A stretch of DNA of 64,000 bases, taken from sequence record PZ496581.1. One strand, written 5' to 3'. The translations under genes were made by a program, and so were the position numbers. Shown piece after piece: positions 42,391 to 64,000 of the stretch. Under the pieces are notes generated by a model that was not told the DNA's origin, ran no database searches, and worked only from the letters and a program-made list of their open reading frames with translations. Position 1 is the first letter of the stretch. Every line of letters begins with the position of its first letter. The stretch comes from a phage.

Positions 42391-42591
42391 TCACAAGTTA
42401 CGTTTAAAAATTTCTGCTACTTCAAGAAGTTCTTCTTTAGTAGCTGTATCGGTTTGTATTTTATATCGAATTTCTTTAAAGCGTTCTTTAAAGGACTCTG
42501 CTGACTCGATATCAAAAAATCTTTGGATAAGCCGGAATTCCCGGAGCACTGCTTTATCAAAAAGTTCCAAGTCCACGTTATATGTTCTCAT
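42391..42591 (-). CDS. Hypothetical small protein (66 aa), rIIA.1 position
   Basis: Track ORF directly upstream of rIIA. Confidence 0.45.
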   Translation of the reverse strand: MRTYNVDLELFDKAVLREFRLIQRFFDIESAESFKERFKEIRYKIQTDTATKEELLEVAEIFKRNL

Positions 42592-42683
42592 AATATTCTC
42601 TTCAGTAGATTCCTAGGGCACTATTACTAAAGACCATATAATCTATCATCTTATGTGTAATAGTGTCTCAGGCTATTCAGGAT

Positions 42684-43784
42684 TTACGCTGTGAAGATTT
42701 TATCCCACATCGCAACAACTGCATCTCGGTTATACTTCTTCCATACTGCTTCAGCACGTTTAACTCGAGCTTCGTATGTGTCAGTGAATTCTAATACAGC
42801 TTTTGTGTAAAGCGCAACTACTTCTTTCTTAGGAGTAGAGGAATCAATTTCTACACGCACAGTATCTGGGTCATATTCGAATGTCGCGTGCGGATAATCC
42901 TTAAAAACTAACTGGATTACAGGGACACCTTTAGAGATGGCTTCAATAGAACTATTCTCTACCGTACCTGTGTCAGGACATGTATTAATAAGTGCTTTAG
43001 CTGTTTTAAGACGTTCCATGATTTCACTGTGTGGAGCATCAATAATAACAGGATATTTAGCTGGTGGTGCCCATTTGCTTGGACAATAACCAATACCATT
43101 TTCGCCTAGTGCTTTAATTGCTTCAAGAGCAACATCAGTGCGACGCATTTTAGTGTCATAACGTTGAGCACTAATAATCAAATCAGTTGCTGGGAGAACT
43201 TCTGGCTTTTCAGTCAAACAAATAACCGGATAATCTTCGGCTTCAAACAACGGATTTGCTCGCCAATAATCATAATCAATTTTGTCAGTCAGACCTGAAG
43301 TCATATAACAATATTTGCGTTCAAATTCACGGAAGGCTTTAGTAGGAGCATAACTCTTACCACCATTCTTATGAATTTGAATAGTCTGGTCCCAAATTTG
43401 AACAATGCCACGAGATACCGGTTCAAATGGTGTTGCCATAAAATTCTTATGAACTTTAGAGAGACCTGCGTCTTTAATTGCCTGAACGGTTAGTTTAGTC
43501 GGTTCCATAGTAACAACAAAATCGTATTCATGGATGCCGGCTAGTTCAACAATCTTACGAGCCATAGTATAACTCATACCTAGACTGAATTTAGTCAGAT
43601 GACCAACAGGATGGTGTGTAACTTTCCAGTCACCAAACGTGTCATTATCAAAGCCGATATAATCAATATCAGCACCGATGGACACAAGATATTTCAACAC
43701 ATTTAAATGTACTGCTTCAAGACCACCTTGTACACGGTCAGGATTAAATGGGACTGCACGAGATGGGATAAACATAACTTTCAT
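42684..43784 (-). CDS. Putative GT-B-fold glycosyltransferase (366 aa)
   Basis: N-terminus MKVMFIPSRAVPFNPDRVQGGLEAVHLNVLKYL and C-terminal E..A.....PVI block typical of GT-B retaining glycosyltransferases; between 39 and rIIA.1, where T4 has none. Confidence 0.55.
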   Translation of the reverse strand: MKVMFIPSRAVPFNPDRVQGGLEAVHLNVLKYLVSIGADIDYIGFDNDTFGDWKVTHHPVGHLTKFSLGMSYTMARKIVELAGIHEYDFVVTMEPTKLTVQAIKDAGLSKVHKNFMATPFEPVSRGIVQIWDQTIQIHKNGGKSYAPTKAFREFERKYCYMTSGLTDKIDYDYWRANPLFEAEDYPVICLTEKPEVLPATDLIISAQRYDTKMRRTDVALEAIKALGENGIGYCPSKWAPPAKYPVIIDAPHSEIMERLKTAKALINTCPDTGTVENSSIEAISKGVPVIQLVFKDYPHATFEYDPDTVRVEIDSSTPKKEVVALYTKAVLEFTDTYEARVKRAEAVWKKYNRDAVVAMWDKIFTA

Positions 43785-43811
43785 AATTAAGCCTTATTAA
43801 AATTAAAATGA

Positions 43812-43827
43812 AGCTCCCGAAGGAGCT
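43812..43827 (-). terminator. UUCG-tetraloop hairpin at the 3' end of gene 39
   Basis: agctcc-cgaa-ggagct. Confidence 0.35.
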
Positions 43828-45644
43828 TAGGACATCCATTCTTTACGAAGTTCTGAATCATCACCCATCAACATTTCAAAGAGTTCTTTCCAATTTTCAG
43901 GAAGTTTAACTACGTCGTACACAGGGTTCTGAATCATTTCACGATATTCTGACTTTTCAAGGGAGCCTAATCCCTTGATGTATCGAATACTATGCTTAGG
44001 CAGTGTATCTTTAACTTCTTCATACTCAGCTACAGTATAAAACCATTTTTGAGTTTTGCCAATTTGTGCAATAATTACAGGCGTTTTAACAAAGCGAATA
44101 CGTCCTTGTTCAAACAATTCAGGCCAATTACTAAAGAAAGCAAGCAAAGCCGGATAGATACTTCCAAGACCGTCGTGATCTGCATCAGTCATAATTGCAA
44201 TATTACGATAGTTCGTATTCTCTGCCTTTTCACCAAGAATAAGACCTGTGATAGCACAGATATCAAAGAGCTCTTTGTTCTTCATCATATCAGCATATGA
44301 CATACCCCAGCTATTCATCACCTTACCACGTAATGGGAATCCGCCGTGTAGTTCACGGTCACGAACATCAATGAGATAACCAATTGCCGAATCACCTTCT
44401 GTTAAAAACAATGTCGTATCTGCATCTTTACCACATTGGTTAGCTTTAATATGCTTATGAACCTTAGCTTTAGTCGCCTTTTTAGCTGCTTTAGTTTCTG
44501 CAGCCTTTTCTGCTGCCAATTTACGAGCTAATGCTGCTTCAACAATAGGCATAATCAAGGCTTCGTTTTTAAGAAGTGCCTGAGCAATTTTCTTAGCATC
44601 TAATTGGATATGATTACGAATATCACCATACGTTGACGTTAAACGTTCTTTAGTCTGAGAATCAAAACGCATGTTGCTCATGTCTCTAATAAACATCAAC
44701 ATTGTGAGGCATTCTTTAACACGAGCTTTAGTGACTTCAATACCCTTATATTTCTTTTTAATACCCGGCAAAAGATGTTCACAGATATCATCCATTACAC
44801 ATTCAACATGATGGCCACCATTTTTAGTATGGATGTTATTCACATAAGTTAAATGACGGAAGCCATCTGGTGATGTTGTGAATGCTATAGAGACTTTATC
44901 ATTTTCTTGAATGATGTTATCTTCACCGAATTGTTTAGCAAATCGTTTAAAATTACCATCAACCTTTTTACCATTAAATGTGAACTTGATATCAGGATAA
45001 ACGACTGCCAATGTTTGAAGTCGGTCTAAAGTAATATCTAAATAAATTTGAGATAAATTATGCTCTTCAAATGAAGTGAAATCAGGAGTGAAGATTACTT
45101 TAGTGCCTTTACCTTTAGATTTCTTAGAAGACCATGATTTGTTTTCCATTCCGTTTGAACAGTTAACAGTGATTTCATTTTCGCCATCTGATGTGATGCC
45201 TGTAAACAACGTAGAGAAGATATTAGTTAAACTACTCCCGACGCCGTTCATACCACCAGTCTTGCGTTCAGAGTCATCACCAAAGTTACCACCAGCCTTT
45301 GGAATAGTCCAGGCTGCTACAGGCCCAGGAATTTGTTCACCCGTTTGGTCGGTAACTAAACCTTGAGGAATACCACGTCCGTTATCTTCCACCGAAACTT
45401 GATTATTTTTAATTTGCACATCAATTTTATTTGCAAACTTAAATGATGTACGAATAGCTTCATCAACCGAGTTGTCAATAATCTCATCGATTAATTTAAC
45501 CAGGCCAGGAACATATTCAACTTGTTGATATTTACCAAACAAAAAACGCTCATGTGCTTCTTTAGCCGAAGAACCAATATACATACCACTACGTTTCTTA
45601 ATATGTTCTACATCTGACAATACCTTAATTTCATTTTTAATCAT
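43827..45644 (-). CDS. 39: gp39 DNA topoisomerase II large subunit (GyrB-like ATPase plus TOPRIM), uninterrupted 605 aa
   Basis: GHKL N-terminus with SGMYIG; TOPRIM LFLTEGDSA; one ORF covers both the T4 gene 39 and gene 60 equivalents. Confidence 0.9.
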   Translation of the reverse strand: MIKNEIKVLSDVEHIKKRSGMYIGSSAKEAHERFLFGKYQQVEYVPGLVKLIDEIIDNSVDEAIRTSFKFANKIDVQIKNNQVSVEDNGRGIPQGLVTDQTGEQIPGPVAAWTIPKAGGNFGDDSERKTGGMNGVGSSLTNIFSTLFTGITSDGENEITVNCSNGMENKSWSSKKSKGKGTKVIFTPDFTSFEEHNLSQIYLDITLDRLQTLAVVYPDIKFTFNGKKVDGNFKRFAKQFGEDNIIQENDKVSIAFTTSPDGFRHLTYVNNIHTKNGGHHVECVMDDICEHLLPGIKKKYKGIEVTKARVKECLTMLMFIRDMSNMRFDSQTKERLTSTYGDIRNHIQLDAKKIAQALLKNEALIMPIVEAALARKLAAEKAAETKAAKKATKAKVHKHIKANQCGKDADTTLFLTEGDSAIGYLIDVRDRELHGGFPLRGKVMNSWGMSYADMMKNKELFDICAITGLILGEKAENTNYRNIAIMTDADHDGLGSIYPALLAFFSNWPELFEQGRIRFVKTPVIIAQIGKTQKWFYTVAEYEEVKDTLPKHSIRYIKGLGSLEKSEYREMIQNPVYDVVKLPENWKELFEMLMGDDSELRKEWMS

Positions 45645-45694
45645 GTTGTCTCCTCGTTATGAAGGTATTCTATCATCCAAAATCTAAAGCAAAA

Positions 45695-45708
45695 AGGGCC
45701 TAAGCCCT
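45695..45708 (-). terminator. Hairpin plus U-tract upstream of gene 39
   Basis: agggc-ctaa-gccct followed by UUUUU on the minus RNA. Confidence 0.4.
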
Positions 45709-46134
45709 TATTTAAATTTAATTTTCTGAAGTGCATCAATTGCAGCCAAACGCCCTTGTTCACTTTTAACTGTAATGACCACATCGCCTGATACGATCAC
45801 CGAACCATCAACAAATTCTATAGAGCCCTTTTTTGAAATCGACAGCTGTATCTGGTTCCGGAACTTCTTCAAAGAATTTAAATTCTGCACCATAAAGCAG
45901 AATATCACCTTGCATACTATGAATAGTTCGGCCATAATCGCCTACGGCTTCTACAGCAATCATCGAAACACCGTAACCAATCATCTCTTCCACAATAAAA
46001 TCTTTGGACAATAAAGTAGTATGCAGATTAGTATTAAGACGTTTACCAGTCGTATTAAGAATTCTCAAGAAATTATCTTCCTGTCCTTTGATAATACGAT
46101 ATTTCTTACCAACTTCAAAACCTTTAAAAGCCAT
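45708..46134 (-). pseudogene. Apparent single gene (~143 aa) split into two overlapping ORFs by a frame change at a homopolymer run
   Basis: ORF 45808..46134 ends 8 codons after the A6 run (plus T6 at 45829..45834); ORF 45708..45935 carries the protein-like C-terminus GSIEFVDGSVIVSGDVVITVKSEQGRLAAIDALQKIKFK in the +1 frame. Confidence 0.4.
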
Positions 46135-54871: not shown

Positions 54872-55087
54872 TTATGCATATTTCTTGTCGATATAAAAAT
54901 GACCACCGCCTTTAACAAAGACCCAGAATAGATTTCTATCGTCTGTATCCCGGCAGTAAAAATCATCTAACCGGAAATAGTTTTCTTCAGGGAATTCAAG
55001 ATGTCGCCCGAGTTCTATCGCATCAGAACCGAACGCTTTAGTAGCGGGACGACCATCATCGTCCCATTTCTTGAAATTGAATTGCAT
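54872..55087 (-). CDS. Hypothetical protein (71 aa)
   Basis: Track ORF; stop overlaps the gene 56 start. Confidence 0.45.
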   Translation of the reverse strand: MQFNFKKWDDDGRPATKAFGSDAIELGRHLEFPEENYFRLDDFYCRDTDDRNLFWVFVKGGGHFYIDKKYA

Positions 55088-55608
55088 TAATAACCTCGGT
55101 CTTGGCGAGCGAAGTTTTCAGCATTCTTCAGATAATACAGTTTGAAGATTTCTTCAGCAGAAAGTCCCAGACCTTGGAACATATTTAGAACGAAATGCAG
55201 AATATCAATCATTTCAAATTTAATTTCAAGCTGGTCTTCAGGAGACAGTTCATCGATACGACGATTTCGATATTCAGCATGTTGTGCTTTCCATGGCTTC
55301 CATACAGAGCTAGCGGCTTTCTCACCATTGCTCATACCGCCAAGTGAAGTCAGCAGTTCACGGAATTCATCATCAATATAATCTTTCTGATTACGCAGCC
55401 AATCAACAACATCGCCAGCAGTAGCCAATTCATCAGGATGTTTGTTATGTTCAGGCTTGTCATTTGCCAGACGAACCTGTAAAGATTTCTGCATATCAAG
55501 CATTACCTGCAGTGGGTCTTTATCTTCGTGAATCAGAGCATTAAAATAAGCTTCTTCTGCTTTATCAACACCAGAAATAAGTTGTGAACATTCGTTAAAG
55601 TGCGCCAT
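55087..55608 (-). CDS. 56: gp56 dCTPase/dUTPase (MazG-like), ~173 aa
   Basis: MAHFNECSQLISGVDKAEEAY...DPLQVMLDMQ...EIFKLYYLKNAENFARQDRGY matches remembered T4 gp56; start moved to MAHF. Confidence 0.8.
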   Translation of the reverse strand: MAHFNECSQLISGVDKAEEAYFNALIHEDKDPLQVMLDMQKSLQVRLANDKPEHNKHPDELATAGDVVDWLRNQKDYIDDEFRELLTSLGGMSNGEKAASSVWKPWKAQHAEYRNRRIDELSPEDQLEIKFEMIDILHFVLNMFQGLGLSAEEIFKLYYLKNAENFARQDRGY

Positions 55609-62077: not shown

Positions 62078-62440
62078 TTAAAAGAATTTAAATTTTTTCT
62101 TGGTTCGTTCATTAAAAGCTTGTTGTACTTGCATTGTAACACATTTTTCAACATGTGGTGCAAGTTCTGCTTTTCTGTCCTGGTCAAGAACTGCAAAGTC
62201 CATTACGATTTTACCATCAACCCAGTCTAGTTTTGTAATATAGACTATATGATGGGAACCGTCTTCAAGTGTAATCAGAATCTCTTGAATGACATTTTCC
62301 ATTGCTGAACGGATAATTTTAAGAGATTCATTAAACACTCGTTCTTTGCGAATGTCCTCCCCTTCCGAAGAAGGGGATTCATCAACGATTTCTAGATTTA
62401 AATCATCGAGATTATTCATCGAAATCTTCCATTTCGTCAA
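62078..62440 (-). CDS. 40: gp40-like protein (120 aa)
   Basis: Position between uvsX and 41 as in T4; similar size; sequence not independently recognised. Confidence 0.55.
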   Translation of the reverse strand: MTKWKISMNNLDDLNLEIVDESPSSEGEDIRKERVFNESLKIIRSAMENVIQEILITLEDGSHHIVYITKLDWVDGKIVMDFAVLDQDRKAELAPHVEKCVTMQVQQAFNERTKKKFKFF

Positions 62441-63584
62441 GGTCGTTTTCTATATCTGCTGCAGATGGAGCATCAGAAGTTTTAACCGGAACTTTAGTTG
62501 TTGCTTTGCAATTAATAAGGTCGTTAACAGCGTCATCAACTTCTTTAATAGAAGAGATAGCACCTAGTTTATATTTAGTTTCAATTGCATCTCGGAAAGG
62601 TTTGTGTTTAAACAAAGGTCCCCAGAATTCTACACAATCAGTAGCTTTAGCACGCCATGATTTTTCTTCACGAATCATTTCACCTGTTTCTTCGTCAAGG
62701 AATTCGCGAGCATACCAACCGGCTTTAGGCTTAACCACAAAACCGATTTCAGTTGCCATTTCTAACAAGCCACTGAATGGGTCAATACCGCCATCAAAAT
62801 TAACCGTGATCGGGAAAGTAGATTTCTCTTTAACTGTGCGAGATTTTTCTGCTTTCAACGTGAAGTCATAACCGGTCAATTCTGTACCTTCTTTAACCTG
62901 ACGTTTAGAGATAAAAAACACTGTGTTGGCAGAATAAAGAATACCTGTACCACCGCCCATAATCTCTTTAGGATACAATCCGCCAATTTCCATTGCGGTA
63001 TGGTTAATTGCAACACACGGAATATCTTTAATAGTCAGATACGGGGTCACAATACGGAAAAGAGATTTAAGTGCCTTAGCACGAGACATATCACCTACAA
63101 CTTTCTCGTTCAATGCATCTTCAGTTTCTTTCTTAGATGCAGTATTACCGATTGAATCGATAAAGATAATAACTTTATCACCCCGTTCAATCGCGTCAAG
63201 CTGATTAGTCATATCAACTTTAAGTTGTTCGACGGATTGAATCGGAGTATGAACTACACGGTCTAAATCAACACCCATTGAACGAAAATAAGATTCTGAA
63301 GCACCGAATTCTGAGTCATAAAACAAACAGATTGCATCTTTATATTTCTTCATATACGCTGCGACCATAGTTAGTCCAAACAATGTTTTAAAATGTTTAG
63401 AAGGTGCAGCAAAAATAGTCAAGCCTGATTGCAATCCTGCATTCAGAGCACCACCTAGTGCAATATTCAACATCGGAATACGAGTAGGGACTTCATCACG
63501 ATTATTAAACAGCTTAGACTTAGTCAAGTCTGCAGTCATTTTAGAAGTAGAAGCTTTAATCAGACGAGATTTTAAATCAGACAT
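62412..63584 (-). CDS. uvsX: UvsX recombinase (RecA-like), 390 aa
   Basis: MSDLKSRLIKASTSKMTADLTKSKLFNN...IPMLNIALGGALNAGLQSGLTIFAAPSKHFKTLFGL matches remembered T4 UvsX. Confidence 0.9.
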   Translation of the reverse strand: MSDLKSRLIKASTSKMTADLTKSKLFNNRDEVPTRIPMLNIALGGALNAGLQSGLTIFAAPSKHFKTLFGLTMVAAYMKKYKDAICLFYDSEFGASESYFRSMGVDLDRVVHTPIQSVEQLKVDMTNQLDAIERGDKVIIFIDSIGNTASKKETEDALNEKVVGDMSRAKALKSLFRIVTPYLTIKDIPCVAINHTAMEIGGLYPKEIMGGGTGILYSANTVFFISKRQVKEGTELTGYDFTLKAEKSRTVKEKSTFPITVNFDGGIDPFSGLLEMATEIGFVVKPKAGWYAREFLDEETGEMIREEKSWRAKATDCVEFWGPLFKHKPFRDAIETKYKLGAISSIKEVDDAVNDLINCKATTKVPVKTSDAPSAADIENDLDEMEDFDE

Positions 63585-63682: not shown

Positions 63683-64000
63683 TTAACGAGCCCATTTGAT
63701 GATTTCTGTAATCAAATCATTACGTTCGCTTGCATTAAATCCTATAACTTTGTTAGCACCATCATGATTAAGTAATTGATACGTTTGGATTTTGTTATGA
63801 ATTGCAAACTCTTCAAAATGTGAAATGACTGTATTAAAACCGAATGAAGACAAAGTAATAAGGTCGTCTTCAAAACTTTCAGTCATTTCGTTACGTGTTA
63901 AAATAATTGTGAACACATCATGGTTTTGGCAAAGACGAACATAATCCTGTTCATAAACGTCAAGAACCGAGTCCGCATCTTGTCGAATACGTCCATAAAC
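63683..64000 (-). CDS. Partial CDS (C-terminal part; 5' end beyond the window), hypothetical
   Basis: The frame of track ORF 63683..63916 stays open upstream to position 64000 with no stop; the GTG at 63916 is probably internal. Confidence 0.4.
   Translation of the reverse strand, partial: VYGRIRQDADSVLDVYEQDYVRLCQNHDVFTIILTRNEMTESFEDDLITLSSFGFNTVISHFEEFAIHNKIQTYQLLNHDGANKVIGFNASERNDLITEIIKWAR

What the first reader, a model, noticed from the sequence alone, without database searches (positions are those of the whole stretch)
42684..43784. Glycosyltransferase-like gene inserted between gene 39 and rIIA.1
T4 has no gene here. The 366-aa product has a GT-B-like N-terminus (MKVMFIPSRAVPFNPDRVQGGLEAVHLNVLKYL) and a C-terminal E..A.....PVI block. 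T-even phages modify hydroxymethylcytosine with sugars, and some T4 relatives use non-glucose sugars via dedicated transferases at non-canonical loci. This is therefore a candidate DNA-hypermodification enzyme that would change restriction sensitivity. The window ends just upstream of uvsX, where T4 carries beta-gt, so the canonical glucosyltransferase complement cannot be assessed from this window.
Basis: inference. Interest (0 to 1): 0.65.

Follow-up and report, generated by a model that had tools for sequence, protein, structure and literature searches.

The report
Known phage DNA arabinosyltransferase (RB69 ORF003c)

Summary

In these phages the base is reported to be 5-hydroxycytosine, not hmC, carrying beta-D-Araf-(1-3)-alpha-D-Araf. 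This enzyme is proposed to add the second arabinose; a different transferase in the uvsX-gene 43 cluster adds the first. Three of my results support that role:
- Full-length homologs DLP3 gp76 and gp77 (40-43% identity) are the enzymes shown in vitro to extend arabinosylated DNA from UDP-Araf.
- In Acinetobacter phages two copies sit inside the arabinosylation cluster.
- The first transferase occurs in 349 phage records, this family in only 212.

"T4 has no gene here" is wrong: T4 has 60, 60.1 and mobA there. Verdict: correct call, already known, low interest.

The parts
42684..43784 (-). Gene for the 366-aa GT-B glycosyltransferase, ortholog of RB69 ORF003c/gp3, Bas46 bas46_0103 and the HY126 glycosyltransferase (PDB 9iqz/9ir0); proposed second (beta) DNA arabinosyltransferase
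   Evidence: ORF; PHROG 8302 E 3.8e-222; PDB 9iqz E 4.8e-250, ~98.6% identity; 156 phage records >=95% identity; model and fold searches; literature
43792..43795 (-). Shine-Dalgarno AAGG, 7 nt upstream of the ATG
   Evidence: Read directly from the sequence
43811..43828 (-). Hairpin AAGCUCC-UUCG-GGAGCUU overlapping the gp39 stop codon, followed by a T-rich run. It is terminator-like or an RNA-stabilising element between gene 39 and the transferase gene. No convincing promoter lies in the 42-nt spacer, so the gene is probably co-transcribed with gene 39 (inference).
   Evidence: Terminator-like scan; fold -10.5 kcal/mol but z only -1.22
43827..45644 (-). Context: unsplit topoisomerase II large subunit gp39 (605 aa, equals T4 gp39 plus gp60)
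   Evidence: Pfam; tblastn with T4 gp39 and gp60
42391..42591 (-). Context: rIIA.1
   Evidence: Pfam T4_RIIA1 E 2e-30; 71% identity to T4 rIIA.1
63686..64000 (-). Same pathway: C-terminal 105 aa of the kinase-like protein (RB69p045 / bas46_0140). It is the first gene of the arabinosylation cluster that in relatives fills the space between uvsX and DNA polymerase. The rest of the cluster (first arabinosyltransferase, 5-hydroxy-dCMP synthase, UDP-arabinose enzymes) lies beyond the window edge.
   Evidence: 99% identity to bas46_0140; reading frame; Bas46 map; Pfam domains of the cluster genes
55087..55608 (-). Same pathway: dCTPase (gp56-like), which removes dCTP so that the modified cytosine replaces C
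   Evidence: Pfam dUTPase_2 E 1.7e-6; Bas46 annotation 'dCTPase / dCDPase' at the corresponding position; listed as a pathway member for RB69 (RB69p028) in PMC13326640

Best explanation
The gene encodes a soluble, UDP-sugar-dependent GT-B glycosyltransferase that works on phage DNA after replication. In RB69-type phages cytosine is replaced by 5-hydroxycytosine (made as 5-hydroxy-dCMP by a thymidylate-synthase homolog). A first transferase, encoded in the uvsX-gene 43 cluster, attaches alpha-D-arabinofuranose to the C5 oxygen. This enzyme then transfers a second arabinofuranose from UDP-Araf onto O3 of the first, giving beta-D-Araf-(1-3)-alpha-D-Araf-5-hydroxy-dC. The bulkier disaccharide further blocks nucleases and glycosylases that recognise modified cytosine. 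Shown here: the gene, its fold, its orthology to the crystallised UDP-binding HY126 protein, its homology to the biochemically tested DLP3 enzymes, and its phyletic pattern. Taken from papers: the chemistry of the base and the DLP3 in-vitro activity. Inferred: that this particular protein performs the second addition, alone, and that this changes defence sensitivity.
Against: In the papers I could read, no experiment on the Mosigvirus enzyme itself shows the step it catalyses; the assignment there is a proposal. The two papers most likely to contain the direct test (He et al. 2026 Nat Chem Biol; Mahler et al. 2025 Cell Host Microbe) are not in the library. The DLP3 homologs worked only as a pair and produced the third sugar, not the second. 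The nearest structural relatives are retaining enzymes, whereas the proposed product linkage (beta) differs from that of the first sugar (alpha), so one of the two phage transferases must invert if they share a donor. This is unresolved. The canonical GT4 E-x7-E motif is altered (G273 replaces the first Glu). The sugar counts for phages that lack the family are only partly documented in what I could read.
Confidence: 0.8

Rival explanations
1. It is the first, base-proximal transferase that attaches arabinose directly to the modified cytosine. This was the original 2018 proposal for RB69 ORF003c as 'the' arabinosyltransferase.
Against: A second GT-B-like protein (RB69 gp46:47 / bas46_0141) lies next to the ThyA-like synthase in every arabinosylation cluster and is far more widespread (349 versus 212 records). 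Phages with that transferase but without this family exist, for example Serratia LC53, reported as arabinosylated. The DLP3 homologs of this protein did not modify 5hoC DNA but extended already arabinosylated DNA.
Confidence: 0.08
2. It is a DNA arabinosyltransferase that works only together with a partner transferase (as a complex or an obligate sequential pair) rather than as an autonomous second-step enzyme.
For: The DLP3 homologs gp76 and gp77 were inactive alone and active only together.
Against: Mosigvirus genomes carry a single copy of the family (one matching place per record), so any partner would have to be the unrelated first transferase (no sequence similarity). The HY126 ortholog crystallised on its own with UDP bound.
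Confidence: 0.08
3. It glycosylates something other than DNA (host envelope glycan, a phage or host protein, or a small molecule), or uses a sugar other than arabinose.
For: The nearest structural neighbours act on lipids, small molecules and glycans (PimA, BshA, tetrahydrobiopterin glucosyltransferase, WaaG). In Mosigvirus the gene lies about 20 kb from the modification cluster. Two divergent family members lie in unrelated neighbourhoods.
Against: Homologs are embedded in the DNA-arabinosylation cluster in Acinetobacter phages and act on DNA in vitro. The family is restricted to phages that have that cluster. The family is extremely narrow and phage-only in the contexts I examined (11 representatives among 1.84 billion proteins).
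Confidence: 0.04

Closest known systems
RB69 ORF003c / gp3 (NP_861693.1), Bas46 bas46_0103, and the phage HY126 glycosyltransferase (PDB 9iqz apo, 9ir0 with UDP)
   Same: Same protein for practical purposes: 366 aa, ~98.6% identity to the crystallised chain, same position between rIIA.1 and gene 39, same genus of phage.
   Different: Five substitutions against the 9iqz sequence over 366 residues. Nothing suggests a functional difference.
Acinetobacter phage DLP3 gp76 and gp77 (and Maestro 077/078), DNA beta-arabinosyltransferases 2/3
   Same: Full-length homologs (40-43% identity) with the same invariant motifs. They use UDP-Araf and act on arabinosylated 5-hydroxycytosine in DNA.
   Different: There are two tandem paralogs (56% identical to each other in Maestro) located inside the modification cluster, needed together, giving a tri-arabinosyl product. 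Here there is a single copy about 20 kb away from the cluster, and the phage group is di-arabinosylated.
GT4-type retaining GT-B glycosyltransferases (PimA 2gej, BshA 3mbo/6n1x, MshA 3c4q, sucrose-phosphate synthase 6kih, tetrahydrobiopterin glucosyltransferase 5zer/9v0l)
   Different: 10-15% identity; no Pfam or NCBIfam model detects the protein and no sequence-profile hit to any other PDB chain. The first Glu of E-x7-E is replaced by Gly273, with a new invariant Glu276. The acceptor is a sugar on duplex DNA, and the proposed product linkage is beta.
T4 alpha-glucosyltransferase (1y6f/1xv5) and beta-glucosyltransferase

Membership tests
RB69 ORF003c / HY126 glycosyltransferase family (PHROG 8302) | Full-length sequence homology to the founding members | tested here: met
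   PHROG 8302 E 3.8e-222 over 1-366 of 366; PDB 9iqz E 4.8e-250, ~98.6% identity; 156 phage records >=95% identity
RB69 ORF003c / HY126 glycosyltransferase family (PHROG 8302) | Position between rIIA.1 and the topoisomerase large-subunit gene in Mosigvirus genomes | tested here: met
   same order in Bas46; stated in PMC13390438
RB69 ORF003c / HY126 glycosyltransferase family (PHROG 8302) | Co-occurrence with the 5-hydroxycytosine arabinosylation cluster in the same genome | tested here: inconclusive
   The window ends inside the first cluster gene (63686..64000, 99% identical to bas46_0140) and is 97-98% identical in DNA to Bas46 up to its last base. Bas46 carries the whole cluster. The cluster itself is outside the window.
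RB69 ORF003c / HY126 glycosyltransferase family (PHROG 8302) | Binds UDP and transfers arabinofuranose to arabinosylated DNA | not testable with these tools
   9ir0 is the HY126 ortholog with UDP. In-vitro transfer is shown only for the DLP3 homologs gp76+gp77 (PMC13326640).
GT-B fold glycosyltransferase superfamily | Two Rossmann-like beta/alpha/beta domains with an interdomain cleft | tested here: met
CAZy GT4 / Pfam Glycos_transf_1 (PF00534) type retaining transferases | Detected by the family's sequence profile | tested here: not met
   No Pfam family at E <= 10 and no NCBIfam family. Only sub-threshold GT4-conflict or Glycos_transf_1 hits in divergent relatives P0006, P0010 and P0015. Thomas 2018 reports HHpred links (E 1e-24 to 1e-27) to GT4 structures.
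CAZy GT4 / Pfam Glycos_transf_1 (PF00534) type retaining transferases | E-x7-E motif in the C-terminal domain | tested here: not met
   The second Glu (E281, followed by A...G.PVI) is invariant, but the position of the first Glu is the invariant G273, and an invariant E276 gives E-x4-E. The distant relative P0015 keeps ETAGYAVFEA, and its first Glu aligns with G273.
CAZy GT4 / Pfam Glycos_transf_1 (PF00534) type retaining transferases | Retention of anomeric configuration | not testable with these tools
   The reported linkages are alpha for the first and beta for the second arabinose. The donor anomer is not known to me.
T4 alpha-/beta-glucosyltransferases of hydroxymethylcytosine DNA | Sequence homology to T4 AGT or BGT | tested here: not met
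T4 alpha-/beta-glucosyltransferases of hydroxymethylcytosine DNA | Acts on 5-hydroxymethylcytosine with UDP-glucose | not testable with these tools
   Papers report 5-hydroxycytosine and arabinose for this phage group, and that RB69 has no AGT or BGT homologs (PMC13326640 and PMC13390438). No AGT, BGT or gp42 homolog is found in the window.

The most novel reading that the evidence does not exclude
The enzyme could be an inverting transferase built on a scaffold whose nearest structural relatives are all retaining GT4 enzymes. RB69 DNA carries an alpha-linked first and a beta-linked second arabinofuranose. Both phage transferases look GT4-like, so if they share one UDP-Araf anomer, one of them must invert. 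This family's replacement of the first Glu of E-x7-E by an invariant Gly, together with a new invariant Glu276, might be the mark of that switch. It would also be a rare GT-B enzyme whose acceptor is a sugar already attached to duplex DNA. He et al. 2026, which I could not read, may already settle this.
Probability: 0.3. Interest if true: 0.4.

Novelty: already known. Interest (0 to 1): 0.15.

Why it matters
Arabinosylated cytosine lets RB69-type phages escape restriction enzymes, some CRISPR systems and the glycosylase Brig1, according to papers that cite Mahler et al. 2025. The number of sugars is set by how many transferases of this family a phage carries. This matters for choosing and engineering therapeutic coliphages, for sequencing and cloning their DNA, and for understanding Type IV restriction specificity (BrxU cleaves such DNA). 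For this window, however, the gene adds nothing new. It is a near-identical copy of a gene that was predicted in 2018, crystallised with UDP by 2025, and placed in a pathway in 2025-2026.

Tried and rejected
- Pfam, NCBIfam and PHROG function lookups gave no functional name.
- Sequence and profile searches of the PDB found only 9iqz/9ir0; all other hits had E > 0.3 and were noise.
- The first AlphaFold run, on a 6-sequence alignment, was poor (pLDDT 58). Its fold search already pointed to GT-B, but I did not rely on it. A 12-sequence alignment that included divergent homologs fixed the model.
- The word-indexed and exhaustive protein searches showed a tiny family: 5 clusters among 5.8 billion proteins and 11 representatives among 1.84 billion. 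No bacterial relatives were available for inference beyond the marginal P0015.
- The IMG/VR scan returned only genomes already in GenBank.
- He et al. 2026 and Mahler et al. 2025 could not be read. A text search for the PDB code found only an unrelated paper.
- The sigma-70 promoter scan gave fewer hits than shuffled sequence (8 versus 12.7), so I make no promoter claim. I looked by eye for a MotA-box promoter in the 42-nt spacer and rejected it, because the spacing would remove the ribosome-binding site.
- I considered a horizontally acquired island and rejected it: base composition does not differ from the flanks.
- I considered paralogy with the first arabinosyltransferase and rejected it: no similarity (E 4.1).

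Full report
**Observation.** An AAGG ribosome-binding site lies 7 nt upstream of the ATG. The gene is flanked upstream by a 605-aa topoisomerase II large subunit (43827..45644) and downstream by rIIA.1 (42391..42591) and rIIA. All are co-oriented and were identified by Pfam and by tblastn with the T4 proteins. Base composition matches the surroundings. The statement "T4 has no gene here" is wrong in detail. T4 has genes 60, 60.1 and the mobA remnant between rIIA.1 and 39. In this window gp39 is the unsplit form that covers T4 gp39 (79% identity) plus gp60 (49-64%), and the transferase gene follows it.

**What the window is.** The 6 kb around the gene is 97-98% identical in DNA to many Mosigvirus (RB69-like) coliphages: JM17, APCEc01, mar005P1 and Bas46 "ChristianSchoenbein". 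The protein is encoded at >=95% identity in 156 coliphage and Shigella phage records and at about 43% identity in 56, essentially all of them Acinetobacter phages. Bas46 annotates it "putative hmC-arabinosyltransferase".

**Identity of the protein.** Pfam and NCBIfam do not recognise it, and PHROG 8302 (E 3.8e-222) carries no function. It is, however, about 98.6% identical over its full length to PDB 9iqz/9ir0. The PDB library describes these as "phage HY126 glycosyltransferase" and the same "with UDP", released 2025-07-16. HY126 is one of the Mosigvirus records hit. The family is extremely narrow: 5 clusters at 90% identity among 5.8 billion proteins and 11 representatives among 1.84 billion in an exhaustive profile search.

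A 6-sequence alignment gave a poor model (pLDDT 58). A 12-sequence alignment with divergent homologs gave pLDDT 90.5 and pTM 0.87. That model superposes on the crystal structure 9iqz at TM 0.98 and 1.1 A RMSD. All other strong matches are GT-B enzymes, mainly retaining GT4 types:
- Foldseek E 1e-12 to 1e-9: tetrahydrobiopterin glucosyltransferase, PimA, BshA, MshA, WaaG, LmbT.

**Conserved residues.** Across the family 36 columns are invariant, including R125, G142, Q207-R208-x-D210, R214, N267-T268-C269, G273-T274, E276, E281-A282, G286 and H299-A300-T301-x-E303. The segment E281-A...G-x-P-V-I is the classical end of the GT4 E-x7-E motif. The position of the first Glu, however, is the invariant G273, and a different invariant Glu (E276) sits five residues before E281. 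A marginal relative, P0015 (hhalign probability 96.9%), keeps the canonical ETAGYAVFEA, and its first Glu aligns with G273.

**What the literature says.**
- Thomas et al. 2018 (PMC6024577) found arabinose in RB69 DNA. They identified ORF003c (366 residues, unique relative to T4) as the likely arabinosyltransferase, with HHpred E-values of 1e-24 to 1e-27 against T4 AGT and GT4 structures.
- Lee et al. 2026 (PMC13326640) revised the chemistry by NMR. The RB69 base is beta-D-Araf-(1-3)-alpha-D-Araf-5-hydroxy-2'-deoxycytidine, made from 5-hydroxy-dCMP by a thymidylate-synthase homolog, and RB69 lacks AGT and BGT homologs. They propose gp46:47 (in the uvsX-gene 43 cluster) as the first transferase and gp3 (this gene's ortholog) as "beta-arabinosyltransferase 2".
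- They also showed that purified Acinetobacter phage DLP3 gp76 plus gp77, with UDP-Araf, convert RB69 DNA to the tri-arabinosyl form. No single transferase acted on bare 5hoC DNA.
- PMC13390438 found 5-ara-dC and 5-ara-ara-dC in another Mosigvirus and notes that the second putative transferase lies between rIIA and the topoisomerase gene.
- Bas46 and Bas47 are described as doubly arabinosylated. Deletion of an arabinosyltransferase "Aat" in Bas46 reportedly sensitised it to a defence system. I could not determine which transferase that was.

**My own tests of the second-sugar role.**
1. DLP3 gp77 and gp76 are full-length homologs of the window's protein: 43% identity (E 1e-109) and 40% identity (E 6e-98). 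The published in-vitro activity therefore belongs to this family.
2. In Maestro and DLP3 the two paralogs (56% identical to each other in Maestro) lie directly beside the kinase-like gene, the first transferase, the ThyA-like synthase, the phosphatase, the bifunctional NTP-transferase/kinase and the SIS isomerase.
3. The first transferase occurs in 349 phage records, including Klebsiella, Serratia, Enterobacter, Proteus, Yersinia and Dhakavirus-type coliphages. This family occurs in only 212 records: one copy in Mosigvirus-type phages and two in Acinetobacter phages. This fits zero, one or two extra sugars.
4. The two transferases share no sequence similarity.

**The rest of the pathway and the window edge.** uvsX is inside the window (62412..63584). 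The last 315 bases encode the C-terminal 105 aa of the kinase-like protein that opens the arabinosylation cluster in Bas46 (99% identity). T4 has segA and b-gt at that place. The window is collinear with Bas46 at about 97.8% identity up to its last base, so the parent genome almost certainly carries the cluster. The dCTPase gene of the pathway is at 55087..55608. The window has no homolog of T4 a-gt, b-gt or gene 42.

**Expression.** The 42-nt spacer after gene 39 holds a UUCG-loop hairpin that overlaps the gp39 stop codon, followed by a T-rich run. It holds no credible promoter, and the promoter scan for the whole region gave fewer sites than shuffled sequence. Co-transcription with gene 39 as an early or middle gene is the simplest reading; this is an inference.

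**Open point.** The first sugar is alpha-linked and the second beta-linked, yet both phage transferases resemble retaining GT4 enzymes. If they share one donor anomer, one of them must invert. I could not resolve this, because He et al. 2026 and Mahler et al. 2025 are not held.

**Verdict.** The gene is already known, crystallised and placed in a pathway, so novelty is nil and interest is low.

Noticed in passing
window 43811..43828 (-): Hairpin AAGCUCC-UUCG-GGAGCUU overlapping the gp39 stop codon, followed by CATTTTAATT. It is terminator-like, but its stability is not unusual against shuffles (-10.5 kcal/mol, z -1.22).
   Followed up: partly
window 42592..42683 (-): The 92-nt spacer between the transferase gene and rIIA.1 folds into a long imperfect stem-loop (CACUAUUAC...GUAAUAGUG; -21.4 kcal/mol, z -2.35; 5 of 200 shuffles fold as well). 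Its function is unknown.
   Followed up: partly
window 43827..45644 (-): gp39 is the unsplit 605-aa topoisomerase subunit, equal to T4 gp39 plus gp60. This phage has no gene 60 translational bypass, no 60.1 and no mobA remnant.
   Followed up: yes
window 63686..64000 (-): The window ends inside a kinase-like gene (99% identical to bas46_0140 / RB69p045), the first gene of the arabinosylation cluster. T4 has segA and b-gt at this position.
   Followed up: yes
L012 10001..11140 and L011 3040..4224: Divergent family members (35-39% identity) sit in quite different neighbourhoods. One is among structural genes (gp13-like, terminase) on a 21-kb contig from a sequencing run; another is next to DNA ligase and DsbA on a metagenome contig. 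It is unknown whether those phages arabinosylate their DNA.
   Followed up: no
phage collection: About 137 phage records (Klebsiella, Serratia, Enterobacter, Proteus, Yersinia and Dhakavirus-type coliphages) carry the first arabinosyltransferase but no member of this family. They should be mono-arabinosylated or use unrelated extenders. One record named 'Tegunavirus' did match this family and was not examined.
   Followed up: no
protein residues 273-290 (window 42915..42968): The family replaces the first Glu of the GT4 E-x7-E motif with an invariant Gly273 and has a new invariant Glu276 (E-x4-E). A distant relative, P0015, keeps the canonical motif.
   Followed up: partly
window 45694..45709 (both strands): Palindromic GC-rich hairpin AAGGGCTTAGGCCCTT just upstream of gene 39, scored as terminator-like on both strands.
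   Followed up: no
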